NCBI GenBank assembly: GCA_964389465.1
Contig: CAYMDK010000001.1
Location: 86,852 to 150,851, forward strand
Length of the DNA stretch: 64,000 nt
Direction: 5' to 3'
Source of the DNA: an uncultured archaeon
Lineage (GTDB): Archaea > Thermoplasmatota > Poseidoniia > MGIII > CG-Epi1
Below, in pieces: positions 4,701 to 62,310 of the stretch; within the stretch, counting starts at the first letter, position 1; each line of letters opens with the position of its first letter. Below the pieces are notes generated by a model. That model ran no database searches, was not told the DNA's origin, and saw nothing but the letters and a program-made list of their open reading frames with translations. A program made the translations under genes and the position numbers.

Positions 4701-7700
4701 AATGGCGAAGTGGTAGTTCCAGATGATGTCCTTGGACTCGCCGCTGGCGAATGCCCCACCAGTGCCGGCGCCAGAGACGTCGACAGTGTCCTGATAGACA
4801 ATTTCAGCCAGGTCGGTACCGGTGATGTTCAGGTTGTCAACCACCCAGAACTCGCCGTCATACGGCCAGAGGTAGTGGTAGAACCCGAAGTGGAACCGGA
4901 AGCTGATATCACCCTCGCCGACGTAATCGGCGAGGTCGAATTCGCTCTCGACCCAGTCACCGTTCGGGTGCGCCGAGGCGCCACCGCTGGTGCCGACAAA
5001 GGCATCCTGTCCCCAGAGCGGATTGCCCCAGCCCTGATAGTTGTAGATAGTACCGGGGTAGCCACCGCTCGGGACAATCGTGGTCCAGCTCACACCACCG
5101 TCGTCCGAAATTTCGACTATGCCGCCGTTCGGGTTGTAGCTCAGTCCGCCGGTCCAGTGGAAGTTCCAGCGGTGCTGCATGGTCATCTTGGCGTCAGACG
5201 GAGCAGAGCTCAGGTCGTACGACTCGCTGACCAGCATACCTTCGCCGCCACCATAGTACATCTCGAACTCGTTGTTCGAGCCGGGGCCCCAGGCGTCGCT
5301 GCCGCCAAAGCCGGACTGTCCCGAGGGGAAGGTCCAGCCGGGCTGGCTGCCCCATGAGGAGCCTGCCGACGAATGGGATGCGGTCCAGGGGTGGTTGGAG
5401 CTGCTGTAGCTGTCGTGGTCCTCGGCAATCAGGTTGGTAACATCCTCGGTCCCGAGGGTGAGGCGCACCTTGGTCTTGCCAGAGGTCTGGTCGTTGACGC
5501 CCGCGTTGATTACGGTGGAGCCAATGTCAGGACTGCCATCTACCGGAATCGGGTCGACTACATCGATAGGCGAAACAGCGACGTTGTCGTTGAAGACTAT
5601 GCCGGTAATGGCAAGGTCATCCAGCCGGTAGAAGCCGTTGACGTAGCTGCCCCAGGAGGTCGAGGACCAGCCGACGTGCCAGCGGATGCGGATGTCGTCC
5701 TGTCCCACGTAGGGAGTCAGGTCGAAGGTCTTCTTCTCCCACGGCATCGGCGAGGGGCTGTAGCTGAAGCTGCCGCCCGCGCTGCCGTAGTAGGTGAAGC
5801 CACTGTAGCCACGTAGCGGGTTCTGGTAGTACGCGTAATTGTAAATCGCGTAGCTATAGCCACCAACCGGTGCAATCGGGTTCCAGCTGTTACCACTGTC
5901 TTCCGAGATTTCGACCACCGCACCATCGTACGTGTAGTAGAAGTAGTACGAGTGCATGAAGGTCATCTCGGCCTCAACCGGCATGAGAAGGTTGATGTCG
6001 CCCGTGGAGGCCCACGGGTCGCCGGGATAGGTCTGGTCGTACTTGCGCCCGGAGTCGAGCGAGCAAGGCGCGGAATTGACGTCATTGGAGGCTGCGCCCC
6101 AGATGGAGCCGCCCGAGGTGTCACGTCCGAAATTCCAGTCGTCGACATTGCAGTCATCGAAGTTGTCCGCGAAAACGACGTACTTGACTTCGCGGAAGAC
6201 GTTGAAGCGGTTGTTCGAGATGTCCTCGTCGCCATAGTCATTGATGATAGTCATCGAGACGCCGACCTTATCGCCCGACTTCAGGCCGTTCAACGAGGGC
6301 TGGAACGGACTGAACTCAACCGCGACAGTCTCCTTGTAGTCAATCGAGGCAATCGTCTTGGTCTCGTCGACAAAGGTCTGGTCGATATCAATCAGCTCGA
6401 CCTGCACGTCATCGAGACGGAAGAAACTGTTGTAGTACAGCCACGCGTAGCTGTACCAGTACTGGTTGTAACCTACTGTCCAGCGTACCTTGACGTCCGG
6501 GTAGCCTGTGAAATCACTAAGATCTACCTCCGTGGAATCCCACTTGCACGCCTGCCGGCAGGCAGCGTTGAAACCGCCGCCGGTGCCATAGTAGGTCCAC
6601 GCCTGCTTGTCCTTGATATAGTCAGGCGTGTTGTACCACGAATAAATCGAACCATAAGTGCCTGTGACATAGCCACCGCTGGTGAATTTATCTTCCTCGA
6701 TGTAGGTCCAGGTTGTACCGCCATCGGTCGATGCCTCCAGTATAGCGCCTTCGTACCGGTAGTAGAAGTAGTACGAGTGCTTGAACTTGAGGGTCATACC
6801 GACCGCAGTCGAGGTGTCAATCGAGGGGGTCGTAAGGTGGCTCAGCATCGCATCGAGCGGGCCAAACACCTTATCGAGACTGCCGTCCGAAAGGTCGTAG
6901 TAGCCAACCTTGTCGTAAGCGTTGTAGATGTAGTACTCGCGGTACAGATACGCACTGCTGATGTACACGTGGGTATCGGTCATGGCAACCGAGCCAATGT
7001 AGGTGTTCCAGCCACCGCCGTACTGCGTCAGCACGGTGGACCAGGAACAGCCCGTAGTGGATATCTTTTTCAGTCCGCCATAGAAGCTGGAGTAGTAGTA
7101 CCCTGACGTGTAGACAGAGCCCTCATAGACGTCAACGCTGCTCGGATAGTACAGGTACCCACCACCACTGTACTGACAGTGTGTGTAGGAGTTGGCGCCG
7201 TAGCCACCACTAGAGTCGCGAGTATACTTCCGCAACGCTGACTGGGAGTAATGGCGATAAACCATCCAGATGTCACCGGTGTCGTCATCCGCATCCAGGT
7301 CTTCCCAGTAGTAGTAACGTGATTTACCGTTACCATAGGTGAAGGAGCCATCGGTCGAGCCATCATCCGCATCCAGAATAACTACCTTGGTATTCGCGGT
7401 CGTGTAGAATACCTGCAGTGCGAATACCTGACCATCGTAGTAGGTAAGTGCCATCCCGTACTTGATTGCCGTCGATGAACTCGTCCATAGGAGGGTTCCA
7501 CTCGAACTGAACTTCTTGACCCACGTAGTGGTACAGAACAGGTAACCTGTGCCTGAACAGCGGCCTAACACATAGACATTACCACTGGGGTCAGTGGTCA
7601 CGTCCACCGGGTTGGTAAGGCCGGACTTGAAGACCGACCCCTGGTTGTCGCTGTCAAACTTCCATACTTGCCCATTCAGCCTGTCGGCAACATAGAGGTC

Positions 7701-8852
7701 AGAGCCATCGTGGTGAAGGCGGGCATTATCATTGAACATGCCGCCAATTGCACCCTCCTTGCGGCCGGACGACATGGAACGATCGGATGTGTCACCGTCG
7801 TTGAAGTGGTCGTCACCGTAGTTGTAGTTGCTAGTATGTGCACCCTGACTGTCATTAATATCTCCAGTCCAGAGGTTTGCACCCTGAGACGCACTGGAAG
7901 TGAAGTCACCGGCGCCAGAGTCGAAGTCCTCATCAAGGACAGTGTTGACCTTGGTCGAGAATACCTTGGCGTTGACGTCAACGCTGGTCTGGGTGTTGAC
8001 TCCCTTGTTGACCACGTTGGTCGAAATCGCGTTCTGGTCCGCCAGCGAAAGCGGGTCCGGGACGCTCGAACTCTCGAGCCGCAGCTCGTTGTCCGGAGGC
8101 GGTGGCGGGTAAAACAGGATAGCGAGGTTGTTGTAAGACGAACCACCGGTGCTGTAGGCGTAGCTCAGGCCGGGGCCGGAACCCTTCTGCTGGATACCGA
8201 TGGAAATGGTAGTGTAGTAACCGCCCCAGCTGCCGTCCTGATACTGGTAAACGATGTCACCATTCTCGTGCACGATAGCCTGGAAGGTCGAGGTATCAGA
8301 TGACCAGCAGGTGTAGTAGTTGCTCATCTTGTACCAGGTGATGGTGAGCTGCCGGTCGGGCGCGGTGCCCTGCGTCTCGTACTTGATGTACGCATCATTC
8401 TGGCAGTAGCGCCAGTCGTGCCAGTAGGGCGATAGCATCGTCCCGCTGATTGAACTGTACGGCATCTGGTAGGGAGTCCATGCATACGACACGGAGGGCT
8501 GGTCAAATGAGAACCAGCCGTTGTCACCACCAATGTAAAATTCATCGTAATCCACACCGTAGTAGGTCACCGTAAATCCGAGGTCGAAACTACTGGTGAC
8601 GTAGTCGCCGGGATTGGTAATGGACGTCCCGGTACTGGAAATATCATTCCAGCTATACGACACCTTGCCGTCTGTTTCCAGACTGTCGGTGAAGTTGTAA
8701 CCGAAGGAATCTGGTCCTCCGGTCTTCGCCGTGGCGTAGGGTGCCAGCATCACGAACGTGCTGGTGACCATGAACACGGCAACTGCAAAAGCAACGAGCC
8801 TTGCAGTCCAGGCGAGAGAGCTCTCCGTACGGGTTTCTTGCATATTACACAC
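1800..8852 (-). CDS. Giant (2350 aa) secreted/cell-surface protein: N-terminal signal/TM, NHL-like beta-propeller, four repeated ~180-aa beta-sandwich modules, cupredoxin (plastocyanin-like) domain, C-terminal TM anchor
   Basis: Single uninterrupted ORF. N-terminal hydrophobic segment. Module repeats of the form MT..H.YYFYY.Y.GA..E.S.DGG..W..I...YNY....NPL.GQ. NHL-like YVADRLNGQVWKFD. Type-1 copper signature H..(~35)..YYCSVHPMMAG. C-terminal ...TPSFALTLFGLSMASLLAGLGVALRRREDA. Start is GTG at 8852 or ATG at 8843. Confidence 0.75.
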   Translation of the reverse strand: MCNMQETRTESSLAWTARLVAFAVAVFMVTSTFVMLAPYATAKTGGPDSFGYNFTDSLETDGKVSYSWNDISSTGTSITNPGDYVTSSFDLGFTVTYYGVDYDEFYIGGDNGWFSFDQPSVSYAWTPYQMPYSSISGTMLSPYWHDWRYCQNDAYIKYETQGTAPDRQLTITWYKMSNYYTCWSSDTSTFQAIVHENGDIVYQYQDGSWGGYYTTISIGIQQKGSGPGLSYAYSTGGSSYNNLAILFYPPPPPDNELRLESSSVPDPLSLADQNAISTNVVNKGVNTQTSVDVNAKVFSTKVNTVLDEDFDSGAGDFTSSASQGANLWTGDINDSQGAHTSNYNYGDDHFNDGDTSDRSMSSGRKEGAIGGMFNDNARLHHDGSDLYVADRLNGQVWKFDSDNQGSVFKSGLTNPVDVTTDPSGNVYVLGRCSGTGYLFCTTTWVKKFSSSGTLLWTSSSTAIKYGMALTYYDGQVFALQVFYTTANTKVVILDADDGSTDGSFTYGNGKSRYYYWEDLDADDDTGDIWMVYRHYSQSALRKYTRDSSGGYGANSYTHCQYSGGGYLYYPSSVDVYEGSVYTSGYYYSSFYGGLKKISTTGCSWSTVLTQYGGGWNTYIGSVAMTDTHVYISSAYLYREYYIYNAYDKVGYYDLSDGSLDKVFGPLDAMLSHLTTPSIDTSTAVGMTLKFKHSYYFYYRYEGAILEASTDGGTTWTYIEEDKFTSGGYVTGTYGSIYSWYNTPDYIKDKQAWTYYGTGGGFNAACRQACKWDSTEVDLSDFTGYPDVKVRWTVGYNQYWYSYAWLYYNSFFRLDDVQVELIDIDQTFVDETKTIASIDYKETVAVEFSPFQPSLNGLKSGDKVGVSMTIINDYGDEDISNNRFNVFREVKYVVFADNFDDCNVDDWNFGRDTSGGSIWGAASNDVNSAPCSLDSGRKYDQTYPGDPWASTGDINLLMPVEAEMTFMHSYYFYYTYDGAVVEISEDSGNSWNPIAPVGGYSYAIYNYAYYQNPLRGYSGFTYYGSAGGSFSYSPSPMPWEKKTFDLTPYVGQDDIRIRWHVGWSSTSWGSYVNGFYRLDDLAITGIVFNDNVAVSPIDVVDPIPVDGSPDIGSTVINAGVNDQTSGKTKVRLTLGTEDVTNLIAEDHDSYSSSNHPWTASHSSAGSSWGSQPGWTFPSGQSGFGGSDAWGPGSNNEFEMYYGGGEGMLVSESYDLSSAPSDAKMTMQHRWNFHWTGGLSYNPNGGIVEISDDGGVSWTTIVPSGGYPGTIYNYQGWGNPLWGQDAFVGTSGGASAHPNGDWVESEFDLADYVGEGDISFRFHFGFYHYLWPYDGEFWVVDNLNITGTDLAEIVYQDTVDVSGAGTGGAFASGESKDIIWNYHFAIPGQYKLRVETWIDGYLDDDGNVAADEFTGDNKREVSRETMFTVAYTGGEAEISCKDCTYDGKAHLYEDGWSAHLSSGVARWQTQSTKVFAGSKSWWGGDDEYGTAYNGDSTNLISPSIDLSQATSAKMVFQHQYAYYAYISSYSSTFYDGGHVDVLGTGTIGMTSGDLYGGTVYNYAYYGNPLAGQQGFVAASGGWVESQARLDAFTGTGMDDVAIAFHMGGTFIDWDPTWYIDEVGVYALGFDIEQTSSSMPYKLELGEGATITTSFKNVGMGDLGVGGPISSANVYAYVNDADGNTVWSDSSYTISNLAMGEETGTFSISFPGLSAPGMYTIGVKLAESGTSDTLKDLFKSNNVASHMLLVGTEQDLGTPILTGGENWADAAGEPAAVGDGALSVSWDETDVVTEDMTISIVGQSTGYSPGYVEAVLGTTVTWTNDDTITHTVTSTGGDWPEITLAAGESGSLTFSEVGTFSYYCSVHPMMAGTIVVVAAAVATEQARTNYVPLWTDDSYLMFWANYDMSSGNEITVYAQQKGHSFDSSNTVVLWSPNGFKIVDGRDHSDVGNSLTDDSDGEWNPYYIHLDTSKLGLNGLDYDPAPDNQYSFVFQAKGPQGSASIGGVKVVRTLEHGIFWDKVDHDTRVYEIYPSLGVDVVYTARNIGTLANVLEISPALVAGGSEYDTSDWSIYRAVTDSSSGAPVTTSSIDGTTSIPLDADQQVTITLSIWAPDFDWDTGEPAGNREFDIKLNGKDTANSADMDEPLSASLFIRPPQFSLTGISVDRLAVLEGDDNGVTVRVTAENDGNYAQDVLVVFYVYDPKGGKMVSFPDGMKRVTRIGDTSIDRMAPTAVLTAQKQVDNKVLTYSTASITWVDPFIPEKGADRGNGGEYWDVTVYAQINPTLETEDIINDRTHHDEFLNQRDDNVISGTVSIVAASDTTPSFALTLFGLSMASLLAGLGVALRRREDA

Positions 8853-27038: not shown

Positions 27039-28733
27039 GTGTTCGAAATCCGGCAGCGCGACGGGCTGGCGCGCATCGGCCGCCTGACGACTCCGCACGG
27101 CGAGCTCACGACGCCGACGCTGCTGCCGGTGGTCAACCCGCGCAAGCTGACGCTGGCGCCAGCCGAGATTCGCGACTGCGGGGCGACCGGGCTGATTACC
27201 AACTCGTACATAATTTCGCGCCACGACGAGCTGCGCGAGCCGGCGCTGGCTGACGGCGTCCACGCGCTGCTGGGGTGGGACGGTCCGCTGATGACCGACA
27301 GCGGCACCTTCCAGTCGCACGTCTACGGCGACATCGAGGTCGAGCCGCAGGTCATTGTCGAGTTCCAGCGCGATATCGGCAGCGACATTGGCACCGTGCT
27401 CGACGTCTTCACCGAGCCCGAAAGCGACATCGAACGCGCCGGGGCGGAGCTGGCGGAAACGCAGGCGCGCATCGCGGCGGCCGTCCCGCTCAAGGGTGAG
27501 ATGCTGCTCGCCGCTACGGTGCAGGGCGGCAGCCACCCCGAATTGCGCGAGCGCGCTGCGGCGCAAGTCTCCACCGTCGAGGCGGACGTGCATCCCATCG
27601 GCGGTGTCGTGCCGCTGATGGAGCAATACCGCTACGCCGAGCTGGCGACGCTGGTGCTCGCCGCGAAGCGCGCGCTGGTGCCGTCACGGCCGGTGCACCT
27701 GTTCGGCTGCGGACATCCGTCGCTCTTCGCACTCGCGGCGCTGCTCGGCTGCGACCTGTTTGACAGCGCCAGCTACGCCAAGTTCGCCGCTGATGGGCGC
27801 ATGATGTTCAGTTGGGGTACACGACGACTGGTAGAGATGCAGGAACTGCCATGCGCCTGCGCAGTCTGCTCCGCAACTACCGCCAATGAGCTGCAGGCGC
27901 TCCCCGACACCGAGCGCGAGCGTCAGCTCGCACGCCACAACCTGCTCGTCAGTTTTGCTGAGCTGCGGCGGGTGAGACAGGCGATTCGCGACGGCCTGCT
28001 GTGGGAGCTGGTCGTATCACGCGCTGCCGACCGCCCCGAAGTGGCCGACGCGCTCGTGGCGCTCGAGCCGCACGGCGACTGGCTCGAGCAGTGGGAGCCT
28101 GCCTTCCGGCCGCGGCAGCCGACCGCGAAGCGGGAGTCGCTCCTGCGGCTCGCGCGCAGCAGGCTCACCCGCACGGCCAGCGGCGGCCCTGCCTTCGAGC
28201 ATCCGCTCTTCGGCGGCGTCCCCGAAACGCTGGTGGACACGGCGCCGCTGCGGCCGCTCGGCAACGTGCGCCAGCGCGACTGGACCGCCGCACGGGTGCA
28301 TGCCATCGCCAGCTACCAGTTCGGTAGCGCTGCAGCCGACGCACTAATGGATGGTGATGTAGAGCTGGTTACCAGCCGTAATACCGGACGATTACGCAAC
28401 GTACTGGTTGACGGTGAGCATCGTTTGTCGCTGAGTGCACGTCACGGGCTTTTCACACTCCGGGCAGCTGGTGCATGTGTAATCCACGCCACCTGCGCAG
28501 CACCGCAGCACCGGGTGGTGGTCCACGCGGACTCTGCTGAGTTCAACCGGCAGGGGCGAAACGCCTTCTGCAAGTTTGTCCTTGAATGTGACCCGGAACT
28601 GCACTGCCAGGACGAGTGCCTGATTGTTACTGAAAGTGATGAGCTGGTCGCAGTAGGGAAACTAAAAACGGCGCCTGTCGAGATTGCATTGGGTCAGCAG
28701 GGACTGGCGGTCAAGGTGCGCGAAGCCGTTTAA
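27039..28733 (+). CDS. tgtA: Archaeosine tRNA-guanine transglycosylase (ArcTGT) with C-terminal PUA domain
   Basis: TGT TIM-barrel motifs (LTTPHGELTTPTLLPVVNP, DSGTFQ), zinc site CACAVCS...H, and C-terminal C2/PUA-like domains. 564 aa is typical of ArcTGT. Confidence 0.85.
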   Translation: MFEIRQRDGLARIGRLTTPHGELTTPTLLPVVNPRKLTLAPAEIRDCGATGLITNSYIISRHDELREPALADGVHALLGWDGPLMTDSGTFQSHVYGDIEVEPQVIVEFQRDIGSDIGTVLDVFTEPESDIERAGAELAETQARIAAAVPLKGEMLLAATVQGGSHPELRERAAAQVSTVEADVHPIGGVVPLMEQYRYAELATLVLAAKRALVPSRPVHLFGCGHPSLFALAALLGCDLFDSASYAKFAADGRMMFSWGTRRLVEMQELPCACAVCSATTANELQALPDTERERQLARHNLLVSFAELRRVRQAIRDGLLWELVVSRAADRPEVADALVALEPHGDWLEQWEPAFRPRQPTAKRESLLRLARSRLTRTASGGPAFEHPLFGGVPETLVDTAPLRPLGNVRQRDWTAARVHAIASYQFGSAAADALMDGDVELVTSRNTGRLRNVLVDGEHRLSLSARHGLFTLRAAGACVIHATCAAPQHRVVVHADSAEFNRQGRNAFCKFVLECDPELHCQDECLIVTESDELVAVGKLKTAPVEIALGQQGLAVKVREAV

Positions 28734-28765
28734 AGCAGGAAAGATAAGTCAGAACAGGAGCTGAC

Positions 28766-30334
28766 ATGCAGAAAATTAACAGGCGCCAGACATTCGTTGT
28801 ATTCACTGTAGTTCTTGTTCTTTCGATGACCGTTTACAGTAACGGTCATTTCCGGGACCTTTTCTCATATTATGAGCATGCTGGAGATAAAGCGTATGAC
28901 CTGAATGATGACGGATGGACTGTGGATTTAGATGCCTCTTTCGAGATGGTTGATAAATTCGATTTGATGCTGGAAAATATAGATGAGTATGAATACCCGG
29001 CGAATAGTGTAATTGTTGTCAACCAGGGGACCATCGTTCGGGAGAGATACTACAATGATTTCAGTTACAGTACGCAATTCAACACTTATTCGGTCACCAA
29101 GAGTTTCACTTCAGTATTGGTGGGAATCGCGATAGACCAGGGAATCATTGGCAGCGTTGACGATCCCGTTGTTAGTTATTTTCCGAACACGACCTTTGAT
29201 GAGAATTCTCCTGAAAAACAGAGCGTTACGATTAAACACATTTTGACCATGACGTCTGGATTTGACTATGGTGTAGACCCTACGTTTGCACCTCCAGTAG
29301 ATGGGTCAATGGCTATGCACGTCCTCAATAGCCCTGTAAATCGTGAACCAGGTACATCATGGGTCTACGACTCGCAAGCACCGTCTATACTCACCAGAAT
29401 TATTGAGATTCAATCAAATATGTCATTGATAGATTTTGCCAATGAATCCCTATTCGGCCCCCTGGGGATTCAGGAAGTATCATGGGGTACGGATGACTCG
29501 GGGCTGGCATACGGCGGCTTTGGGTTGTATCTAACCTCCAGGGAGATGGCGAAGTTTGGCCAATTATTCCTACAGGAAGGGATGTGGAATGGCAAACAGA
29601 TTATATCGAAGGAATGGGTTCAGGAATCAACATTGGACCAGATGCCGGCCAATGTCCAATTTGTTTATTCAGTAAGACCTTCAGGAGGGTATGGCTATCT
29701 GTGGTGGACCTATGACGGGTTTTACACTGCATCAGGCTTGCACGGGCAACGGATAATAGTCAATCCCGGTAACGAATACGTTGTGGTCTTCACTTCGCTT
29801 GACGTGACGCAAGAGGGGGCCGATAACCTTCATAAGTCCTTGCTTGAGGAGGATTTTGTAGGTTGGGAAAAGCCGATGACGGATTTTTACAAGAGGTCTG
29901 CGCCTTACCTGATTTTGCTTCTTCTGTTTTTCGCAACAATCAATTTAGCTCTTCTAAAGTACGGAATCAACCAAAGGATATCCTCTAAGGGCAAAGACCA
30001 GGACATTGTCCTGACCTCTTTGGGATTGTCGGCCTACCCTGTCTTTGTGGGTTTTCTGGCAACCCTTTCAATCGTATTCGTAGCGCTAGACCTCTTTTTT
30101 GCCGGTTCGAGAGGAATCTTGTTCCCAAAGTTCCAATGGCTAACGTGGATAATGCTGATTATGCTCACGGGTTCAATAGTTGTCTTGGACGGTGCGTGGT
30201 TGAAATATAGACATAGTGCAGATCTTGCAGGATTGTCAAAAATTATTGTTCCCAAGTCAATTTTCTTTGTAATATTGACCGTGGTTCTGTTCTTCAGTGT
30301 ATATCTGAGGATGGTTGCTGATTTTTCGGCTTAG
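28766..30334 (+). CDS. Serine hydrolase, beta-lactamase class C / S12 peptidase (D-aminopeptidase-like) family, with C-terminal multi-TM membrane domain
   Basis: S-x-x-K active-site motif SVTKSF with flanking beta-lactamase fold. The C-terminal ~170 aa contains four hydrophobic helices. AT-rich codon usage. Confidence 0.7.
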   Translation: MQKINRRQTFVVFTVVLVLSMTVYSNGHFRDLFSYYEHAGDKAYDLNDDGWTVDLDASFEMVDKFDLMLENIDEYEYPANSVIVVNQGTIVRERYYNDFSYSTQFNTYSVTKSFTSVLVGIAIDQGIIGSVDDPVVSYFPNTTFDENSPEKQSVTIKHILTMTSGFDYGVDPTFAPPVDGSMAMHVLNSPVNREPGTSWVYDSQAPSILTRIIEIQSNMSLIDFANESLFGPLGIQEVSWGTDDSGLAYGGFGLYLTSREMAKFGQLFLQEGMWNGKQIISKEWVQESTLDQMPANVQFVYSVRPSGGYGYLWWTYDGFYTASGLHGQRIIVNPGNEYVVVFTSLDVTQEGADNLHKSLLEEDFVGWEKPMTDFYKRSAPYLILLLLFFATINLALLKYGINQRISSKGKDQDIVLTSLGLSAYPVFVGFLATLSIVFVALDLFFAGSRGILFPKFQWLTWIMLIMLTGSIVVLDGAWLKYRHSADLAGLSKIIVPKSIFFVILTVVLFFSVYLRMVADFSA

Positions 30335-30412
30335 TAAACCCCCTTTTCGTTCCAGACAATACTTACTATTGTTTTTGTAAAACTTAAAAACAACTGTGGC
30401 CTGCGTTGGATA

Positions 30413-31114
30413 ATGACTCTGGAAGGTCTGATAGGCTCCTTGGAGGATTTGAGCGAATTCAATCTAGAAGGTGTCTATGAAGCTGTTTCAAGAACCGCCG
30501 TGGGATTCAAGGACCTTGAGAAATGGATAGATTACGACTATCCCGTCTCTGACTCATATGGTCGGAAAATGGTGCATGATGGTGGTTTTTTCGAAGTGAT
30601 GGTTATGTGCTGGAAACCCGGAGATTATAGTGCTATACACGATCATGGGGAAGCTGAGTTTGGTGTGGTCAAGGTTTTTGGAGATACCGAACACGCCGCA
30701 TTCAAAATAGTGAATCAGAAACTTATCACTCTCGGGCGTACTATCATTGAAGCAGGAACAACGCTGGAAGTGGCTCCAGCATTGATTCATCAAATGGGAA
30801 ATCCGGGAGATAGGAATTTCTTCAGTTTGCACATCTATGTGAATCAGGCCACTGAAGGTGGAATTACGAGAGATTCCAGAATTTATGATTATAGCCGAAA
30901 CGCGATATTACGTGTTGATGGAGGGGCTTTCTATCTCCTGCCAGAAAGCGAGATTAAAGCCAGAGAGCCTCTCCCAGAAGCTGATTCCAGCACCAGGCAA
31001 CGGGACCTGAAGGAAGCCGGAAAGCGCGCGAAAGCTATGAAATGCGGGCCGGAGTACAAACGAATCCTGAATGAGGCGCCTCCAACTCTGGTCGAACCTC
31101 CATTAATCCAGTAA
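30413..31114 (+). CDS. Cupin-fold cysteine dioxygenase type I-like protein
   Basis: Cupin core with HDH metal-binding motif (YSAIHDHGEAEFGVV) and a downstream His (LHIYV). AT-rich codon usage. Confidence 0.6.
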   Translation: MTLEGLIGSLEDLSEFNLEGVYEAVSRTAVGFKDLEKWIDYDYPVSDSYGRKMVHDGGFFEVMVMCWKPGDYSAIHDHGEAEFGVVKVFGDTEHAAFKIVNQKLITLGRTIIEAGTTLEVAPALIHQMGNPGDRNFFSLHIYVNQATEGGITRDSRIYDYSRNAILRVDGGAFYLLPESEIKAREPLPEADSSTRQRDLKEAGKRAKAMKCGPEYKRILNEAPPTLVEPPLIQ

Positions 31115-31116
31115 AG

Positions 31117-31140
31117 TGGCGCCAGGAGAGTGTTCCGAAC
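31117..31140 (+). repeat. Direct repeat of the tRNA-Ser(CGA) 3' end (putative att-site remnant)
   Basis: tggcgccaggagag at 31117-31130 is identical to 31218-31231 (the tRNA 3' end including CCA). Extended similarity covers about 22/27 nt. A hairpin gaacctttt/aaaaggttc follows at 31141-31161. Confidence 0.6.
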
Positions 31141-31217
31141 GAACCTTTTGAGAAAAGGTTCATCAAAATCGTGAGTTCGGAATCACTATCGGAGCGCCAT
31201 GCGCCGTCCACGACGCA

Positions 31218-31303
31218 TGGCGCCAGGAGAGGGATTCGAACCCCCGTGGGGAGACCCCAGTGGTTTTCGAGACCACCGCCCTACCGGACTAGGCGATCCT
31301 GGC
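31218..31303 (-). tRNA. tRNA-Ser (anticodon CGA), class II with long variable arm, CCA encoded
   Basis: Reverse complement: acceptor GCCAGGA/TCCTGGC, 3-bp D stem, anticodon stem GTGGT/ACCAC with loop CTCGAAA, variable arm TGGGGTCTCCCCAC, T-arm GGGGGTTCGAATCCCTC. Confidence 0.8.
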
Positions 31304-34857: not shown

Positions 34858-34935
34858 GCTCCCGTGGTGTAGTCCGGCCCATCATCTCGGCCTCTCGAGC
34901 CGAACACCCGGGTTCGAATCCCGGCGGGAGCACCA
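34858..34935 (+). tRNA. tRNA-Glu (anticodon CTC), CCA encoded
   Basis: Acceptor GCTCCCG/CGGGAGC, anticodon stem TCGGC/GCCGA with loop CTCTCGA, T-arm CCGGGTTCGAATCCCGG, discriminator A plus CCA. Confidence 0.8.
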
Positions 34936-34946
34936 TTTGGCTCGGG

Positions 34947-35684
34947 CTAGTCCGTTCTTGAAAGCCTATCAGAAATAAAGTCAATTACCTTTTGCAGATT
35001 TTTTTCGTTATCAAAATCCTCGACCTCAGCCCCGACACGGACAGACTCAGTCAGTAGTGGCAGACACCGTGTCAGTTCGTCAACTATTGTGACATGGGCA
35101 GTTTGAGCTGTTCTTGAAAGAGGGTTTAGATCAATAGTAATCACCTGCTTTCCCATATCCACCAGAGCTCGACAACGGTCTCCATCCTCAAGTGGAACAA
35201 GAACGACATCAGCCGAACCTATTCCGTCTGAACAGCATTTTGCCCTTTCAGACGTTAATCCAGGGATATTAGCATCATCGTTCTCCCCAAGTGCCTTTAC
35301 CCCGGCATCACCCATCATCCTAGTCAAGGCTGCAACCCGTTCCGGAGTTCGGTGGAACAGGTTTATTTCGACTTTGGCGCCACTTACCTCGGAAAGATGT
35401 GCAATTTCTCTGGCTGCCAGCGCGACAACATTCCCGTTAACCGAAATAACTGGATTGGTGGCACCAACCATCATGGATGCGGCGGCCCTGATTGCATCCA
35501 TCGCGGGCGGACAGGTTTGTTCACCTAACAGGTAATCGAACGCCTCGCCTCTCCCATGGGCAATCAACCCCTGCCTGGCGACGGCATCAGCAGCTTCTAC
35601 CAACTTCTCACGGGCCATGAGGGATTTGTATCTCGGGTGGTCTTCCGGGGGCAGGGTCACGTGACTAGTCCCACTCAAACTCAT
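34947..35684 (-). CDS. 4-phosphopantoate--beta-alanine ligase (archaeal phosphopantothenate synthetase, COG1701)
   Basis: Archaeal PPS signature region [41 protein letters not shown]. Start taken at MSLSGTSHV (35684), 17 nt after the upstream gene's stop. Track start TTG at 35741. Confidence 0.65.
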
Positions 35685-38613
35685 CCTCGTCGTCGCCGCC
35701 ACTTCCTCGCATTCTCCTGAGCAAGACAGCGATTCCTCCAACCGCAGCTATTGCAGGTATTGAATAGAACCATGGATTCAAGCCCTCCTCCACTTTTACT
35801 TCAGGAGCTGAGGATACAGAAACCATAACGCCTTGTGACGTTTCACCAGCAGAGACGGTGATGGTATGGTCGCCGCTTGTCGCTATCCAGTCGAATTGCG
35901 AGAAGCCGTCAGCACCTGCAACCAAATCAACCAAGGCCGTTGAGGCTACCTCGCCATCCACACTCCATGTCAGTTCTGCAATTCCATCAAGGCCCCCTGC
36001 GTTACTTACTATCACGAAGAAAGGCACGTTGTCACCCTCACTCAGATCTGGGGGAATAACTTGAATCGAGGCCAGTATCACTGAGAATTCTGGATGCACG
36101 ATAGACACGCTTACATTTCTCCATGTAGTGGCCCGCCCATCACTGGCGCTTATGGCGAGGTAGTAATCACCTTCATCCAATGCACTGGTGTCCCAGAACA
36201 AGCTACCGGATGGTGCCAAACCTGAAGAAATCGTGGTAAAACCCGTGTTCGAGGAATGCCTGAAAAGAATGTCTATTTCGAGGAGATCGCCGTCCGCATC
36301 CGCCACTGACCATTGCACATCCACGCCATCGTCAATAAGGCCGAAGGGAGCTGGTGAATAGATGAAAATTTCAGGGGCGTTGTTCGGTTGTGTATGATTG
36401 ATTTCAAGAGTATAATCACTACAGTCTTCACTCCCCAAATTACCGTCACTGACCGTTCCGCATACAAACCATTCACCGTCACCAATCTGGGAAGTGTCCC
36501 ATTGGTATTCTCCGTTGTTTGCAAGGCCCGTTTCTATGGTAACAGCGTCATCCAGATTCTCCGTCATGGAGTAGTAGAGAAGGCCAATCACCAATTCGTC
36601 ACTATCTGGGTCGGTGGCCTGCCATCGAATTACGTAGCTATCATCGGCGATGTCGCCCTGTGAACTAGGTGTATTGATGGTGATTTCTGGTGAATCGTTG
36701 TGCTCTATCCGGAGGGTCTCAGAAGTATAGTCAATTTTCTCTTGTGAGGTGGAGTCGGTGGCCACGCCCATCAAGTAGTAATCGCCTTCCGCTATTCCAG
36801 AGGTATCCCATTCATATTCTCCCGAATTTTCGAGATTAGCCGCAATCAGTTGCTTCTCATTGGGTTGTGTGTCTGTGTCATAATACAGGTCGATTGCGAC
36901 TTGATCGCCGTCAGGGTCAGAGGCCACCCACGTGATGGAATAGCTTCCATCAGCGATGGCATCCCCCGGCTCTCCCACTTCCATATCTGGTGGATAATTA
37001 GATGGTGAAATAATCGCAAAACTATTGTCACTGATATCGTCAACTGAAGTGCCTAGCTCATCAGTCAACGTTACTTTCAGAAAACTATCAGCAGAATTCT
37101 CGAAAGGCACTTCCCATTGGAAGGTACCTGTATCAGGCAAACCTTCAGCGATGGTTGTCCAATCTCCATCCGGGCCGTCCGTTGAATATTCCAGTTTTAC
37201 GCTACGGGACCCTGTGGTCGACGGAATTTCCGAGAGCCAGTGGATGAACCTGATAGACCCGCCACGGAAGGTTTCCATGCCGTCAGGATAGTCCATGTCC
37301 ACGCCTAGTGACGACACGGCCGTGCTTTCACGCCAGACTTTCACACTACCTGGGTAGCCTGCCTGGTCCGTTCCAAAACCAGCAATGATATCACGGTGTC
37401 CGTTGTGATCGAAATCCCCTACCTCCATGCGGTGCCCCTGTGCATTTCCCTGCAACGTGTTCTGGGACTTTACCCATCCACCGGTTTCGGTTGCAAGATA
37501 GGTTTCAACGATACCACTAGGAGTGAGGCCCACAATATCATCGTACTTATCCTGATTCATATCAGCTAATTTTATTGTCCGATAGGCTTGGTTCGGCAAT
37601 CCTGCAGAATTATCAGTCCAGCCACCCTCTCCGTCCCCAGAGAAGGCGTAGACATGACTATCATCGTAATCGACCGTGCATAGTGCTAGATCCACGAATC
37701 CGTCATTGTTGAAATCTCCCCAGTCGAGCGAGAACGGACTTTCATCTGAACCTGATTCAACTGGCAGGCCTGCGCTGGAGTCTGTCCAGCCTCCGTTTCC
37801 GTCACCAAGGTAGACCCAGACACCGTCACGAAGATTAGCTATAAGATCCAGGAACCCGTCTCGGTTGATATCAACGAAATAGCCCTGCAAAGTGCTGGCT
37901 CTGCCCATGATTATCCCGTCGTCCTGTTGAGTCCAATTACCGTCACCCGAGTTTGCAAAAGGAGTAAGGACCATATCCATCTGACCCCCTATCAAAACAT
38001 CCAGACGCCCGTCAGCATTATAGTCTCCAACATCAATAGACCAGGCGTCCTGACTGTTACAGCCCTCACACTCTTTCTCTACCACGTTCTCGTCCCAATT
38101 TCCTCCAGAGCCTCGATAGAAGGCACTGACGTTATATTTGCCATGGCTACCAGCCACCACATCCATGTTACCGTCATTGTCAACGTCGCCAAAATCAAAT
38201 CCGCCGTAAGAGTGATGGTTAATCACTTCAGTTCCAAACGTGGATGAAACATTCGACCACGTATTACCATCCCATTGCATTACGTGGAGAGAACGGTCCC
38301 CCTGTCCCTTGCGCGGGCCCAAAAAGAAAGCCTCATCAGTCCCATCTTCGTCAATATCATGAAGCCGGACCTTGGAAACCCAGAGACCTTGTGTGGGTAG
38401 ACCATTGCTAACATCATTGTACTCCGGGGTACCTTGTGCTTCAGCATTATGGGGCAGGTAGTAAAGCCCGGAAAATATCATCGATAAAATCAGGAGAAGG
38501 CTGAGAGTGGGAGAGTGATTCTGTGACCATAGAATTCTACCATGGGTGTTTGAAATATTTAAGCCCCGTTGGAAATATCTAGTCCTGTGCACGCGAGTGG
38601 ACGCGGCAAACAC
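35665..38613 (-). CDS. Cell-surface protein: FG-GAP/VCBS beta-propeller repeats + three Ig-like repeat domains + C-terminal TM anchor and acidic tail
   Basis: FG-GAP repeats ([68 protein letters not shown]). Three ~100-aa repeats of the form ([22 protein letters not shown]...GEYEWDTS...GDYYL). C-terminus [37 protein letters not shown]. The exact start is uncertain (38613 or the internal ATG at MIFSG). Confidence 0.7.
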
Positions 38614-38639: not shown

Positions 38640-39056
38640 ATGGGCGAAGAGACGCGATTACGACACGTCGCCGTGGCGGTCAAATCCATCGACACGGCGC
38701 TGCCGCTGTGGGAGGCGCTCGGCCTGCGGCTGCGCCATACCGAGGGCGTGCCCAGCGAAGGGGTGCGCACCGCGCACCTGGCGGCCGGTGGTGCCGAGGT
38801 GGAACTGCTCGAGCCGCTCGCGGACGATTCGCCGGTCGGCCGCTTCCTGGCGAAGCAGGGGCCGGGGCTGCACCACGTCGCGCTCGAGGTCCCTGACTTG
38901 TCGGCGGCGCTGGACCGTTGCAGCGCCGCCGGGCTGGAGCCGCTGGGCGGCGGTGCGCGCGACGGCACCGAGGGGACGCGCGTCGCGTTCTTCCACCCGC
39001 GCGACACCGGTGGGGTGCTGCTCGAACTGGTCGAGCCCGCCCCCAAACCGGTTTAA
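38640..39056 (+). CDS. mce: Methylmalonyl-CoA epimerase (VOC/glyoxalase family)
   Basis: Two VOC half-sites (LRHVAVAVKSID ... GLHHVALEVPDL). 138 aa, typical MCEE size. Fits the propionyl-CoA/beta-oxidation context. Confidence 0.75.
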   Translation: MGEETRLRHVAVAVKSIDTALPLWEALGLRLRHTEGVPSEGVRTAHLAAGGAEVELLEPLADDSPVGRFLAKQGPGLHHVALEVPDLSAALDRCSAAGLEPLGGGARDGTEGTRVAFFHPRDTGGVLLELVEPAPKPV

Positions 39057-61471: not shown

Positions 61472-62310
61472 GCCGTCAGGAGCACCTTTAGTAGGTCCTG
61501 ACAGTAAATCATTCCAGTCAACTTCCCCTCGGCATCAACCAACGGCACCTGTCCATAGTCCCCATCGAGCATTATCTGGGCAACTCCACTGGCAGGGCTG
61601 CGATAGAATGCGGTCATTACATCCTCAATCATGATTTCTTCCACTGGGACGTCTGGCAGGAAGAGTCGCCTCTCAGAATGGTAGACGCGCATGATATCGC
61701 GCAATCCATCCCATGACCATGGGTCTTCATCAGCAGCAACCCCCATTTCGGAAACCGAGACTCTTTCACTAACATCGGTTGCGTCAAACAGGTCGCGGTC
61801 GGTGACAATTCCACACAACAGCCCGCGTTTGCCAAGTACTGGCATAGCGCGCGCGCCCGAGAGCCGCATGATGCGTAGCGCAGCGCCGAGAGGGGTCAAC
61901 CGGTGGAGTGGGACGCACCCCCCCTCGAGGCAGTCCTGGACAGTCACATCTCCATTCGCTGCGACTAGTGGAAGCAGGTTGGTAGGTGTAACAATACCCA
62001 CAACCACTCCCCCTTCGATGACTGGAAGGTGATTGAAGCCAAGCTCCAGAAATTTGCGCGCGGCCGAGACAACGGTAGAATTTGGCGTCACACTCACAAC
62101 ATCTGATGTCATAATCATCGCGACCTGTTCCTCACCAGTGTTGTTGAAAATATCATTTCGGGAGACAAACCCAGCCAGTTCCATAGTCTCTTCTCTAACG
62201 ACCGGGACGCCCGAGATGTGATGCTTGATCATCAAGTGGAGCACGTCAGTGCGGTTCCCCGGCACTTCGGCGCAGATAACCGGGCTCGTCATTAACTGTT
62301 TTATCCGCAT
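61468..62310 (-). CDS. CBS-domain protein (four CBS motifs)
   Basis: Four CBS repeats (e.g. MTSPVICAEVPGNRTDVLHLMIKHHISGVPVV ...). Start taken at MRIKQLM (62310), right after the upstream stop. The end overlaps the glyS start (ATGA). Confidence 0.7.
   Translation of the reverse strand: MRIKQLMTSPVICAEVPGNRTDVLHLMIKHHISGVPVVREETMELAGFVSRNDIFNNTGEEQVAMIMTSDVVSVTPNSTVVSAARKFLELGFNHLPVIEGGVVVGIVTPTNLLPLVAANGDVTVQDCLEGGCVPLHRLTPLGAALRIMRLSGARAMPVLGKRGLLCGIVTDRDLFDATDVSERVSVSEMGVAADEDPWSWDGLRDIMRVYHSERRLFLPDVPVEEIMIEDVMTAFYRSPASGVAQIMLDGDYGQVPLVDAEGKLTGMIYCQDLLKVLLTA

What the first reader, a model, noticed from the sequence alone, without database searches (positions are those of the whole stretch)
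28340..31217. Low-GC island carrying a membrane-anchored beta-lactamase-fold serine hydrolase and a cysteine-dioxygenase-like cupin
GC falls from about 67% to about 42-48% at the 3' end of arcTGT and returns to high GC only after tRNA-Ser(CGA). Both genes use AT-rich codons unlike the rest of the window. This fits horizontal acquisition from a low-GC donor. The hydrolase has the S-x-x-K motif of class C beta-lactamases / D-aminopeptidases and is fused to a 4-TM C-terminal domain. The cupin has the HDH metal triad of cysteine dioxygenases, which could mean a thiol-oxidising function.
Basis: seen in the sequence. Interest (0 to 1): 0.65.

Follow-up and report, generated by a model that had tools for sequence, protein, structure and literature searches.

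The report
Swappable low-GC gene cassette in archaeon
A real but fairly ordinary two-gene low-GC islet in a high-GC marine group II archaeon: a membrane serine hydrolase and a cysteine-dioxygenase-like enzyme, borrowed from low-GC relatives, sit in a slot between two conserved genes that can be full, altered or empty in otherwise closely matching genome fragments.

Summary
Window 28340-31217 is the lowest-GC stretch of its size in the window (GC 0.47 against 0.62; gene GC3 0.45-0.50 against 0.8-0.9 in neighbours). It holds a PF00144 serine hydrolase (N-terminal anchor plus 4 C-terminal helices) and an Arg-type cysteine-dioxygenase-like cupin.

The host is a high-GC Thalassarchaeaceae (marine group II) archaeon. 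The hyd-cupin pair exists as a unit in 43% GC Poseidoniia, downstream of a pirin gene. The 32 nt between the arcTGT stop and the hydrolase ATG are a remnant of that pirin gene, which shows the origin directly.

The cassette is neither strain-specific nor simply ancient. The arcTGT to tRNA-Ser slot is full in several species-level lineages (two allele groups), holds a hydrolase stub plus a HEAT-repeat gene in others, holds only a stub in others, and is empty in L077, whose 3.6-kb right flank is 97.6% identical to that of an island-bearing contig. Island alleles are younger (dS about 0.35) than the host lineages (0.6-1.0). This window is a recombinant that took its islet and the last ~430 nt of arcTGT from a more distant lineage (breakpoints about 28301 and the tRNA).

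There is no integrase and no viral link. Exchange is by homologous recombination in the flanks. The islet shows no drift toward host GC. It is a new member of a known kind (a flexible genomic islet).

The parts
27761..27959 (+). Short recombinant patch inside arcTGT that follows the distant (L017/L018, 'B') lineage
   Evidence: Lineage-informative sites switch from A to B to A across this stretch. GC3 dips locally to 0.65.
28301..28733 (+). arcTGT 3' end (C2/PUA domains) in the islet-linked, lowered-GC3 haplotype. This is the left homologous-recombination arm; the B-type tract begins at about 28301.
   Evidence: Informative sites switch to B from 28301. dS to L017 is 0.25 here against 0.86 in the arcTGT 5' part. 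GC3 is 0.45-0.72 in all islet-bearing lineages but 0.82-0.95 in the empty-site L077. Islet haplotypes are 65-74% nt identical to the empty haplotypes over the last 345 nt.
28734..28765 (+). 32-nt remnant of the 3' end of a pirin gene. It marks the left edge of the transferred DNA and carries an SD-like GGAG upstream of the hydrolase start.
   Evidence: It aligns with the pirin 3' end directly upstream of hyd in L065, L152, L064 and L151. The upstream ORF of L064 matches Pirin_C at 1.4e-26.
28766..30334 (+). Membrane-anchored PF00144 (beta-lactamase-fold, S12-type) serine hydrolase, 522 aa
   Evidence: PF00144 at 1.7e-35. S109, K112 and Y201 are invariant. Best solved relatives are Lsa45, PIB-1, NylB and family VIII esterases. 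TM segments lie at 9-27 and in four helices over 370-521. dN/dS is about 0.15.
30335..30412 (+). 78-nt hyd-cupin spacer with a conserved TATA-like box CTTAAAAAC (30383-30391), about 26 nt upstream of the cupin ATG
   Evidence: The spacer is near-identical to that of L017 and the low-GC L151. The box is conserved in all islet alleles and in L151/L152, although the A and B spacers otherwise differ. Promoter function is inferred.
30413..31114 (+). Cysteine-dioxygenase-family cupin (Arg-type thiol dioxygenase), 233 aa, with a C-terminal extension of about 80 aa that includes two helices
   Evidence: PF05995 at 6.7e-9. R51, H76, H78, H126, H140 and Y142 are invariant. The model has pLDDT 90.9. Best fold match is B. 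subtilis CDO at TM 0.81-0.83, rmsd 2.1-2.4.
31117..31217 (.). 101-bp structured insertion next to the tRNA. It begins with a 21/24 copy of the tRNA-Ser 3' end. It is not part of the cassette proper.
   Evidence: Direct repeat D4. Absent in L011, L016, L017, L020 and L077 but present in the empty-site L114. The fold gives z = -6.3.
31218..31303 (-). tRNA-Ser(CGA). This is the right homologous-recombination arm and the right boundary of the slot.
   Evidence: ARAGORN and Rfam both call it. It is 98.8-100% identical in all lineages. Identity to L017 collapses to the right of it.

Best explanation
The interval is a small flexible genomic islet: a two-gene cassette occupying a polymorphic slot between arcTGT and tRNA-Ser(CGA) in a high-GC Thalassarchaeaceae (marine group II) archaeon.

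Origin (shown). The hyd-cupin pair was assembled in low-GC (about 43%) Poseidoniia downstream of a pirin gene. A fragment consisting of the pirin 3' tail, hyd and cupin was inserted just downstream of the arcTGT stop codon.

Spread (shown for the pattern, inferred for the process). The cassette has since moved between lineages by homologous recombination, with crossovers in the arcTGT 3' end and in or near the tRNA gene. No integrase or virus is involved. This produced two allele groups, stub and replacement variants, and empty sites within closely matching genome fragments. This particular genome took its copy, together with the last ~430 nt of arcTGT, from a more distant L017/L018-type lineage.

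State of the genes (shown). Both genes are under purifying selection. Their composition is at a steady state and is not drifting toward host GC.

Function (inferred from family, residues and fold). The hydrolase is an outward-facing acyl-serine hydrolase held in the membrane by an N-terminal anchor and a C-terminal helical bundle. It most likely acts on peptides, amides or esters outside the cell. The cupin is a cytoplasmic Fe(II) thiol dioxygenase that converts cysteine, or a cysteine-like thiol carrying a carboxylate, to the sulfinate. Whether the two enzymes work together is not established.
For: Composition outlier.

Same cassette at the same site in other lineages. It is found in L011-13, L017, L020, L073, L082, L083 and L085.

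Other slot states.
- L016, L074 and L075 hold a 69-codon hyd stub plus a HEAT_PBS/SHOCT gene.
- L018 and L078-80 hold a 127-codon hyd stub only.
- L077 is empty: the arcTGT stop lies 24 nt from the tRNA and GC3 stays at 0.82-0.95 to the end. Its right flank is 97.6% nt identical to L011 and 96.8% to L016.
- L114 is also empty.

Low-GC origin.
- L151 (GC 0.427) carries pirin-hyd(82%)-cupin(88%) with the same 78-nt spacer.
- The 32-nt pirin remnant is present in the window.
- Native copies match their hosts' GC.
- In an NJ tree the islet alleles nest within low-GC hydrolases.

Recombination.
- Window versus L017 is 0.92-0.97 nt identical from about 28300 to the tRNA, against 0.55-0.83 in the flanks.
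- Informative sites switch at 28301.
- dS between A and B is 0.34-0.47 for the islet, against 0.62-1.03 for the flanks.
- Window versus L017 dS is 0.18-0.25 for the islet plus arcTGT 3' end, against 0.64-0.86 for the flanks.

No mobile-element signs. There are only two ORFs of 60 aa or more in a plausible frame, and no viral hits.

Selection and composition.
- dN/dS is 0.14-0.22.
- Polarised synonymous singletons are 38 AT->GC against 36 GC->AT.

Function.
Against: - The donor of the low-GC3 arcTGT 3' haplotype was not found. The nearest outgroup arcTGT (P0247, 62%) has a different downstream gene and no hydrolase. The idea that a lower-GC relative first held the arcTGT-linked cassette therefore remains an inference.
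- The direction of individual transfers is not always clear. L152 and L065 (43% GC) carry a 26-30-nt piece of the arcTGT tail plus spacer, so some traffic went from the arcTGT slot back into low-GC genomes.
- The hydrolase tree is a simple NJ tree and shows signs of intragenic recombination.
- 'Same species' for L077, L011 and L016 rests on a 3.6-kb right flank only.
- All sequences are metagenome consensus sequences.
- Enzyme substrates, topology and promoter use are untested.
Confidence: 0.8

Rival explanations
1. It is a classical tRNA-targeting integrative element: a site-specific integrase inserted the DNA into the 3' end of tRNA-Ser, and the islet is what remains.
For: The islet abuts the 3' end of tRNA-Ser(CGA). 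A 21/24 copy of the tRNA 3' end lies at 31117-31140.
Against: No integrase or other mobility gene is present. The tRNA-end repeat bounds only a 101-bp insert, not the islet. That insert is absent from other islet-bearing lineages and present at an empty site. There is no matching repeat at the left edge. The left edge is a pirin remnant abutting the arcTGT stop. The breakpoints are those of homologous recombination within arcTGT. No viral contig carries either gene or the insert.
Confidence: 0.06
2. It is a recent acquisition in this strain only, taken directly from a low-GC organism. This is the simplest reading of the first-stage note.
For: The compositional contrast is strong and there is no amelioration. 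Several assemblies break at the arcTGT/hyd junction.
Against: The same cassette sits at the same site, with the same GC, in at least five species-level lineages. The window's allele is closest (93% aa, dS about 0.2) to that of L017, a 55-60% GC Thalassarchaeaceae, and the co-transferred arcTGT 3' end is also L017-like.
Confidence: 0.05
3. The genes are ancient and vertically inherited in this clade. Their low GC is a local property, for example selection for AT-rich codons or escape from a GC-raising force, rather than a sign of transfer.
For: The cassette is present at the same site in most relatives. Composition is at a steady state: both islet and flanks imply the same short-term equilibrium GC3 of about 0.49.
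Against: - The pirin remnant at the junction shows an origin in another genomic context.
- Islet A-B dS (0.34-0.47) is well below flank A-B dS (0.62-1.03).
- The window's islet is more similar to L017's than its flanks are.
- An empty site with a fully high-GC arcTGT exists in a contig whose right flank is near-identical to an islet-bearing one.
- A native low-GC copy is only dS 0.25 from the A allele.
Confidence: 0.05
4. The mosaic is an artefact of metagenome assembly or binning, in which a low-GC contig was wrongly joined to a high-GC one.
For: Several short contigs start or end at the arcTGT/hyd junction.
Against: Independent assemblies from different runs and projects span both junctions with identical proteins (L002, L003 and L011-13; L017 and L020; L073, L082, L083 and L085). 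The junction sequence itself is conserved and interpretable.
Confidence: 0.01

Closest known systems
Flexible genomic islands of marine prokaryote populations: replacement or additive islands next to tRNA genes, exchanged by homologous recombination in conserved flanks (concept recalled from my own knowledge of work on Alteromonas, Pelagibacter and Haloquadratum; not checked in the paper library)
   Same: The slot lies between a core gene and a tRNA. Presence, absence and content vary among closely matching contigs. Recombination tracts extend into the flanking core gene. Alleles cross species boundaries.
   Different: It is very small (two genes, 2.5 kb). The alleles come from relatives whose genomic GC is about 20 points lower, and they retain that composition. 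A junction remnant (the pirin tail) documents the source locus.
tRNA-linked integrative genomic islands and integrative elements
   Same: It lies next to the 3' end of a tRNA gene and has foreign composition.
   Different: There is no integrase, no bounding att repeats and no mobility genes. The boundaries are homologous-recombination breakpoints.
PF00144 / MEROPS S12-type serine hydrolases: Lsa45 (8dc1), PIB-1 (8rlj), NylB, family VIII esterases (EstG, EH7), and ClbP
   Same: The fold matches (TM 0.78 to Lsa45, normalised to the target). The S-x-x-K nucleophile/base and the second-motif Tyr are present. Like ClbP, the catalytic domain is followed by a C-terminal helical membrane domain.
   Different: Identity to any solved protein is only 17-27%. 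There are four predicted C-terminal helices plus an N-terminal anchor. The third motif reads L-H-G rather than K-T/S-G. There is no NRPS/PKS neighbourhood, unlike ClbP. The substrate is unknown.
Bacterial Arg-type cysteine dioxygenase (B. subtilis YubC/CDO, 3eqe and 4qm9)
   Same: It is a cupin fold (TM 0.81-0.83, rmsd 2.1-2.4 A). The 3-His site, the Arg that binds the substrate carboxylate, and the Ser-His-Tyr triad are all conserved. As in bacterial CDOs, there is no Cys for the Cys-Tyr crosslink.
   Different: Identity is about 20-22%. There is a conserved extra C-terminal extension of about 80 residues, which includes two helices. In low-GC relatives the orthologue sits in a PIG-L / GT4 / ATP-grasp cluster, which hints at a substrate other than free cysteine.

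Membership tests
Horizontally acquired genomic islet | Composition deviates from the host genome | tested here: met
   GC is 0.469 against 0.621 (z = -3.1, lowest of 612 windows). GC3 is 0.45-0.50 against 0.79-0.91.
Horizontally acquired genomic islet | Absent from the same site in some close relatives | tested here: met
   L077 has the arcTGT stop 24 nt from tRNA-Ser, and its right flank is 97.6% identical to the islet-bearing L011. L114 is also empty.
Horizontally acquired genomic islet | Closest homologues lie in another lineage, in a different genomic context | tested here: met
   L151, L152, L064 and L065 (43-46% GC) have a pirin-hyd context. The pirin remnant is present in the window.
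Integrase-mediated tRNA-targeting integrative element | An integrase or recombinase gene within the element | tested here: not met
   The interval holds only the hydrolase and the cupin. Their Pfam hits are PF00144 and PF05995.
Integrase-mediated tRNA-targeting integrative element | Direct att repeats (a copy of the tRNA 3' end) bounding the element | tested here: not met
   The only copy (31117-31140) lies 101 bp from the tRNA and bounds a small insert that also occurs at an empty site. There is none at the left edge.
Flexible (replacement/additive) genomic island exchanged by homologous recombination | Recombination breakpoints within conserved flanking genes, and alleles incongruent with the flanks | tested here: met
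   Breakpoints lie at about 28301 and at the tRNA. Islet identity to L017 is 0.92-0.97 against 0.55-0.83 for the flanks. Islet dS is below flank dS.
Flexible (replacement/additive) genomic island exchanged by homologous recombination | Different gene content at the same slot within a population | tested here: met
   Four states were seen: hyd+cupin, stub plus HEAT/SHOCT gene, stub only, and empty.
PF00144 beta-lactamase-fold serine hydrolase (class C / S12 type) | S-x-x-K motif (nucleophile Ser and general-base Lys) | tested here: met
   S109-V-T-K112. S and K are invariant in 32 of 32 homologues.
PF00144 beta-lactamase-fold serine hydrolase (class C / S12 type) | Second-motif Tyr (Y-x-N / Y-x-x) | tested here: met
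   Y201 is invariant. The motif reads Y-D-S here.
PF00144 beta-lactamase-fold serine hydrolase (class C / S12 type) | Third motif K/H-T/S-G on the beta-3 strand | tested here: inconclusive
   The sequence is G324-L-H326-G327-Q328. G324 and Q328 are invariant, H326 is present in 22 of 32 and G327 in 29 of 32. The register relative to the K-G-S of Lsa45 is shifted by one.
PF00144 beta-lactamase-fold serine hydrolase (class C / S12 type) | The fold | tested here: met
   The catalytic domain of the model has pLDDT above 90. Foldseek gives E = 3e-21 and TM 0.78 to Lsa45.
True beta-lactamase or D-aminopeptidase activity | Hydrolysis of beta-lactams or D-aminoacyl amides | not testable with these tools
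   This needs enzyme assays. The nearest solved relatives have varied activities (esterase, imipenemase, nylon-oligomer hydrolase), so the family does not predict a substrate.
ClbP-type prodrug-activating membrane peptidase | An S12 domain plus a C-terminal TM bundle, encoded within an NRPS/PKS cluster | tested here: not met
   The architecture is loosely similar, but the match is weak (E = 2e-7 by sequence; TM 0.54 and rmsd 11.7 over the full length). No NRPS/PKS genes occur in any context examined.
Cysteine dioxygenase (PF05995), Arg-type | 3-His metal site | tested here: met
   H76, H78 and H126 are invariant and align with the ligands of B. subtilis and rat CDO.
Cysteine dioxygenase (PF05995), Arg-type | Arg that binds the substrate carboxylate (rat R60), as opposed to the Gln of mercaptopropionate dioxygenases | tested here: met
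   R51 in S-Y-G-R is invariant and aligns with Y-G-R (B. subtilis) and Y-T-R (rat).
Cysteine dioxygenase (PF05995), Arg-type | Ser-His-Tyr outer-sphere triad (rat S153/H155/Y157) | tested here: met
   S138-L-H140-I-Y142. H140 and Y142 are invariant.
Cysteine dioxygenase (PF05995), Arg-type | Cys-Tyr crosslink (rat C93), a feature of eukaryotic CDO only | tested here: not met
   The aligned position is F83, and F or W across the family. This is as in bacterial CDOs, which also lack the Cys.
Cysteine dioxygenase (PF05995), Arg-type | Conversion of cysteine to cysteine sulfinate | not testable with these tools
   This needs an enzyme assay.

The most novel reading that the evidence does not exclude
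The islet may act as a natural neutral probe of how GC content is maintained in these archaea.

Polarised recent synonymous changes imply the same equilibrium GC3 of about 0.49 for the flanks (currently 0.92) and for the islet (currently 0.48). The islet would then sit at the mutational equilibrium of its host. The host's very high GC3 would have to be held up by selection or biased gene conversion that does not act on the cassette.

Together with the other GC3 ~0.5 segments in the window, which include housekeeping genes, and with the two-way cassette traffic, this would mean that Poseidoniia lineages differing by 20 or more GC points still share a gene pool through homologous recombination.
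Probability: 0.3. Interest if true: 0.55.

Novelty: new member of a known kind. Interest (0 to 1): 0.35.

Why it matters
As an islet it is ordinary: a small horizontally acquired cassette next to a tRNA gene.

Its value is as an unusually well-documented case in uncultured marine group II archaea. The source context is preserved as a 32-nt gene remnant. All the intermediate states are sampled (full, replaced, decayed and empty). The recombination breakpoints can be read directly.

It shows that lineages with very different GC content exchange alleles by homologous recombination, without mobile-element machinery. It also shows that acquired low-GC genes can persist under purifying selection without drifting toward host composition. 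That bears on why some marine archaea have high GC.

The two enzymes add to the surface-hydrolase and sulfur-amino-acid repertoire of a globally abundant heterotroph. Their substrates are unknown.

Tried and rejected
- **Integrase or att model.** The repeat search found only a 24-nt tRNA-end copy, which bounds a 101-bp insert and not the islet. Rejected.
- **Viral vector.** Neither the two proteins nor the 101-bp insert was found in viral contigs.
- **arcTGT 3' end co-transferred from the same low-GC donor as hyd.** DNA similarity between L065 and L011 starts only after the arcTGT stop. A-B dS in the arcTGT 3' end equals the species-level dS. Rejected.
- **Source of the low-GC3 arcTGT 3' haplotype.** The last homologue search showed a gap from 85% down to 62% identity. 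The 62% outgroup has different synteny. The donor was not found.
- **Window glyoxalase (38640-39056) as the orthologue of the glyoxalase next to native hyd**, which would have suggested a rearranged ancestral locus. There was no tblastn match. Rejected.
- **ClbP-like prodrug peptidase.** The match is weak and there is no NRPS context. Rejected.
- **Literature.** Searches found nothing specific on this locus or on these genes in MGII.
- **Rfam.** It found only tRNAs in 24-36 kb.

Full report
**1. The observation**

GC falls from 0.63-0.70 to 0.40-0.49 between about 28.4 and 31.2 kb and recovers to 0.70 just past tRNA-Ser(CGA) at 31218-31303 on the minus strand. The stated interval has GC 0.469. 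It is the lowest of 612 windows of that size (mean 0.621, z = -3.1), and the minimum starts at 28301.

GC3 is 0.495 for the hydrolase (28766-30334) and 0.449 for the cupin (30413-31114). The six neighbouring genes have GC3 0.79-0.91. Within arcTGT, GC3 drops from about 0.9 to 0.45-0.72 over the last ~400 nt.

The arrangement is not an assembly artefact. Independent assemblies from different runs span both junctions with identical proteins.

One qualification applies. The window has other lowered-GC3 segments, so these two genes are not unique in it (see section 8).

**2. The host and the relatives**

Exact and near matches come from marine metagenomes and from MAGs labelled Poseidoniia or Thalassarchaeaceae.

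Contigs with arcTGT at 84-91% aa identity fall into two groups by their flanks:
- Group A: L011-13, L016, L020, L077, and this window.
- Group B: L017 and L018, which have lower GC (0.55-0.60). Synonymous divergence from A in flanking genes is 0.62-1.03.

**3. The slot is polymorphic**

Across genome and metagenome contigs, the interval from arcTGT to tRNA-Ser takes four states.

| State | Contigs |
|---|---|
| hyd + cupin, with the cupin stop 2 nt from the tRNA | A alleles: L011-13, L020/L073, L083, L085. B alleles: window, L017, L082 |
| 69-codon hyd stub followed by a 309-aa HEAT_PBS/SHOCT protein | L016, L074, L075 |
| 127-codon hyd stub only | L018, L078-80 |
| Empty | L077, L114 |

In L077 the full-length arcTGT ends 24 nt from the tRNA, and its GC3 stays at 0.82-0.95 to the stop codon. 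Its 3.6-kb right flank is 97.6% nt identical to the islet-bearing L011 and 96.8% to the HEAT-bearing L016. Content therefore varies among genomes whose flanking sequence suggests one species. That inference rests on this one flank.

**4. Where the genes came from**

- **Native hydrolase contexts.** In low-GC Poseidoniia the hydrolase matches host composition and sits in conserved neighbourhoods. L014 (GC 0.43) and L015 (GC 0.36) have PFK-aldolase-PPK2-hyd-glyoxalase-Zip. L064, L065 and L151 have pirin-hyd.
- **The pair as a unit.** L151 (GC 0.427) carries pirin-hyd-cupin. Its hydrolase is 82% and its cupin 88% identical to the window's, and its 78-nt intergenic spacer is nearly the same.
- **The junction remnant.** The 32 nt between the arcTGT stop and the hyd ATG in the window (AGCAGGAAAGATAAGTCAGAACAGGAGCTGAC) align with the last codons of that pirin gene in L065, L152, L064 and L151. 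The L064 upstream ORF matches Pirin_C at 1.4e-26. This remnant shows that the cassette was cut out of a pirin-hyd-cupin context and placed after arcTGT.
- **Junction variants.** L020 and L016 keep 13 nt of the native arcTGT-downstream spacer, as seen at the empty sites, plus 14 nt of pirin tail.
- **Traffic in the other direction.** L152 (GC 0.429) has an exact 30-nt match (E = 4e-12) to the arcTGT tail plus that spacer, followed by a longer pirin remnant, hyd and cupin. L065 has 25 of 26 nt. So an arcTGT-linked version also moved back into low-GC genomes. This fits the NJ tree, in which the L065 group nests among the islet alleles, and the dS of 0.25 between L065 and the A allele.
- **Replacement among low-GC relatives.** L014 and L065 have dS of about 0.25 in five neighbouring genes but 1.03 in hyd and 0.93 in the glyoxalase.
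- **The cupin's wider home.** More distant orthologues (61-68% identity, 225 aa) sit in a different conserved locus: PIG-L deacetylase, GT4 glycosyltransferase, ATP-grasp ligase, then the cupin, near the SecY/ribosomal operon in contigs of GC about 0.46.

**5. How it moves**

No integrase, transposase or viral signal is present.

The window shows clean homologous-recombination signatures. Against L017 and L018, nt identity is 0.76-0.83 in the arcTGT 5' part. It rises to 0.92-0.97 from about 28.3 kb through the islet, and falls to 0.55-0.8 beyond the tRNA. Lineage-informative sites switch from A-type to B-type at 28301, with an extra B-type patch at 27761-27959.

| Comparison | dS, islet | dS, flanks |
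|---|---|---|
| Window vs L017 | 0.18-0.25 (islet plus arcTGT 3' end) | 0.64-0.86 |
| A vs B alleles | 0.34-0.47 | 0.62-1.03 |

 The islet alleles are therefore younger than the host lineages. This genome took a B-type islet together with the last ~430 nt of arcTGT.

The lowered GC3 of the arcTGT 3' end occurs in every islet-bearing lineage but in neither empty site. Islet-linked and empty haplotypes differ by 26-35% at the nt level over the last 345 nt.

This haplotype was not co-transferred from the pirin-hyd donors. DNA similarity to L065 begins only after the arcTGT stop. I infer that it comes from a lower-GC relative that once held the arcTGT-linked cassette, but that lineage was not found. 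The nearest outgroup arcTGT (62%) is followed by YdjM.

**6. State of the genes**

dN/dS is 0.14-0.22, so both genes are under purifying selection.

Polarised synonymous singletons in the islet are balanced: 38 AT->GC against 36 GC->AT. A process holding GC3 at 0.87 would predict about 7:1 (binomial p about 1e-14). The flanks show 6 against 69.

The per-site rates imply an equilibrium GC3 of 0.49 for both the islet and the flanks. The islet is therefore not ameliorating. Two explanations fit: repeated re-import of low-GC alleles, or a GC-raising force that does not act on the cassette. The flank AT->GC count is small, and the sequences are metagenome consensus sequences, so I treat the second explanation as a hypothesis.

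**7. Function**

*Hydrolase.*
- It matches PF00144 at 1.7e-35.
- S109-x-x-K112 and Y201 are invariant. The third motif is atypical (L-H-G).
- The catalytic domain is modelled at pLDDT above 90. The best fold matches are Lsa45 (TM 0.78), PIB-1, EstG and other family VIII esterases, and NylB.
- There is an N-terminal hydrophobic anchor after a basic N-terminus, and four long C-terminal helices. This suggests an outward-facing enzyme fixed in the membrane.
- ClbP shares the idea of a C-terminal membrane domain, but the match is weak and no NRPS context exists.
- The substrate cannot be inferred from the family.

*Cupin.*
- It matches PF05995. The model has pLDDT 90.9.
- The best fold match is B. 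subtilis CDO at TM 0.81-0.83, rmsd 2.1-2.4 A.
- It keeps the 3-His site (H76, H78, H126), the carboxylate-binding Arg (R51) and the Ser-His-Tyr triad (S138, H140, Y142).
- It is therefore an Arg-type thiol dioxygenase by every sequence criterion I could test. It carries an extra conserved C-terminal extension that includes two helices.
- A conserved CTTAAAAAC box about 26 nt upstream of its ATG may be its own promoter (inferred).

Whether the two enzymes cooperate is unknown. They are linked only in the islets and in L151 and L152.

**8. Context in the window**

Two further segments have lowered GC3.
- A segment with GC3 of about 0.5 starts right after tRNA-Glu(CTC). It holds phosphopantothenate synthetase (34947-35741) and a 982-aa FG-GAP/Kre9 protein (35665-38613). 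Its content also varies among relatives.
- A class II aminoacyl-tRNA synthetase and a CBS protein (59885-62424) have GC3 of about 0.58.

The genome is thus a compositional mosaic. This fits frequent allele import from lower-GC relatives.

**9. Verdict**

This is a small flexible genomic islet of low-GC Poseidoniia origin. It circulates by homologous recombination, is polymorphic among closely matching contigs, and carries two plausibly functional enzymes. It is a new member of a known kind. The modest extra interest lies in the clear junction remnant, the two-way traffic across a large GC gap, and the lack of amelioration.

Noticed in passing
window 31117-31217: A 101-bp insertion lies between the cupin stop and tRNA-Ser. 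It begins with a 21/24 copy of the tRNA 3' end, has imperfect inverted ends and folds strongly (z = -6.3). It is absent from L011, L016, L017, L020 and L077. It is present at 95.6% identity next to the tRNA at the empty-site contig L114. No copy occurs elsewhere in the window or in viral contigs. It may be the scar of an old integration or a miniature element.
   Followed up: partly
window 34947-38613 (after tRNA-Glu 34858-34935): A second tRNA-flanked segment has GC3 of about 0.49-0.50. It holds phosphopantothenate synthetase (PPS_PS) and a 982-aa FG-GAP/Kre9 surface-type protein. Relatives differ in content here: PPS_PS is present in L016 and L020 and absent in L011-13, FG-GAP is truncated in L012, and a cyclase gene present in L011-13 is missing from the window.
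   Followed up: partly
window 59885-62424: Two housekeeping-type genes have lowered GC3: a class II aminoacyl-tRNA synthetase (0.575) and a CBS-domain protein (0.58). Their neighbours are at about 0.8-0.9. This suggests allele import from lower-GC relatives outside accessory islets as well.
   Followed up: no
L066-L072 (for example L066 5073-8678): In low-GC Poseidoniia the cupin's orthologue (225 aa) is the last gene of a conserved cluster: PIG-L deacetylase, GT4 glycosyltransferase, ATP-grasp ligase, then the cupin, next to the SecY/ribosomal region. This gene set resembles bacillithiol/mycothiol-type low-molecular-weight thiol pathways (resemblance from my own knowledge; not tested).
   Followed up: no
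L016 9699-10909; also L074, L075: An alternative cassette occupies the same slot: a truncated hydrolase (69 matching codons) followed by a 309-aa protein with three PBS-lyase HEAT repeats and a C-terminal SHOCT domain, at GC about 0.545.
   Followed up: partly
L152 576-735; L065 78-234: Two contigs of 43% GC carry a piece of the high-GC clade's arcTGT tail plus its native spacer (30 nt exact in L152; 25 of 26 nt in L065). It lies upstream of a longer pirin remnant and the hydrolase. This implies back-transfer of the arcTGT-linked cassette into low-GC genomes. The upstream ORF there ends in the borrowed codons ...REAV*.
   Followed up: partly
L014 10001-12035 versus L065 235-2269: Between two closely related low-GC genomes, five neighbouring genes have dS of about 0.25, but the hydrolase and the adjacent glyoxalase have dS of about 1.0. 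The hydrolase region is a recombination hot spot in its native locus too.
   Followed up: partly
window 27761-27959: A 200-bp patch inside arcTGT follows the distant B lineage and has GC3 0.65. It is a separate short gene-conversion tract upstream of the main breakpoint.
   Followed up: yes
L114 1-1004: This empty-site contig joins the x367-gene region directly to arcTGT at about residue 332, with an internal deletion in the C2 domain. It is either a large deletion that made arcTGT a pseudogene or an assembly join.
   Followed up: no
window 1800-8852 (minus strand): A giant 2350-aa ORF has only a weak cupredoxin-like domain hit. Its 5' third (about 7000-8852) has lower GC3 (0.66-0.74) than the rest (about 0.8).
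   Followed up: no
L004, L005, L007, L008, L010: Several short-read contigs start or end within about 30-130 nt of the arcTGT/hydrolase junction. This fits co-existing haplotypes, or the GC step, breaking assemblies at that point.
   Followed up: no
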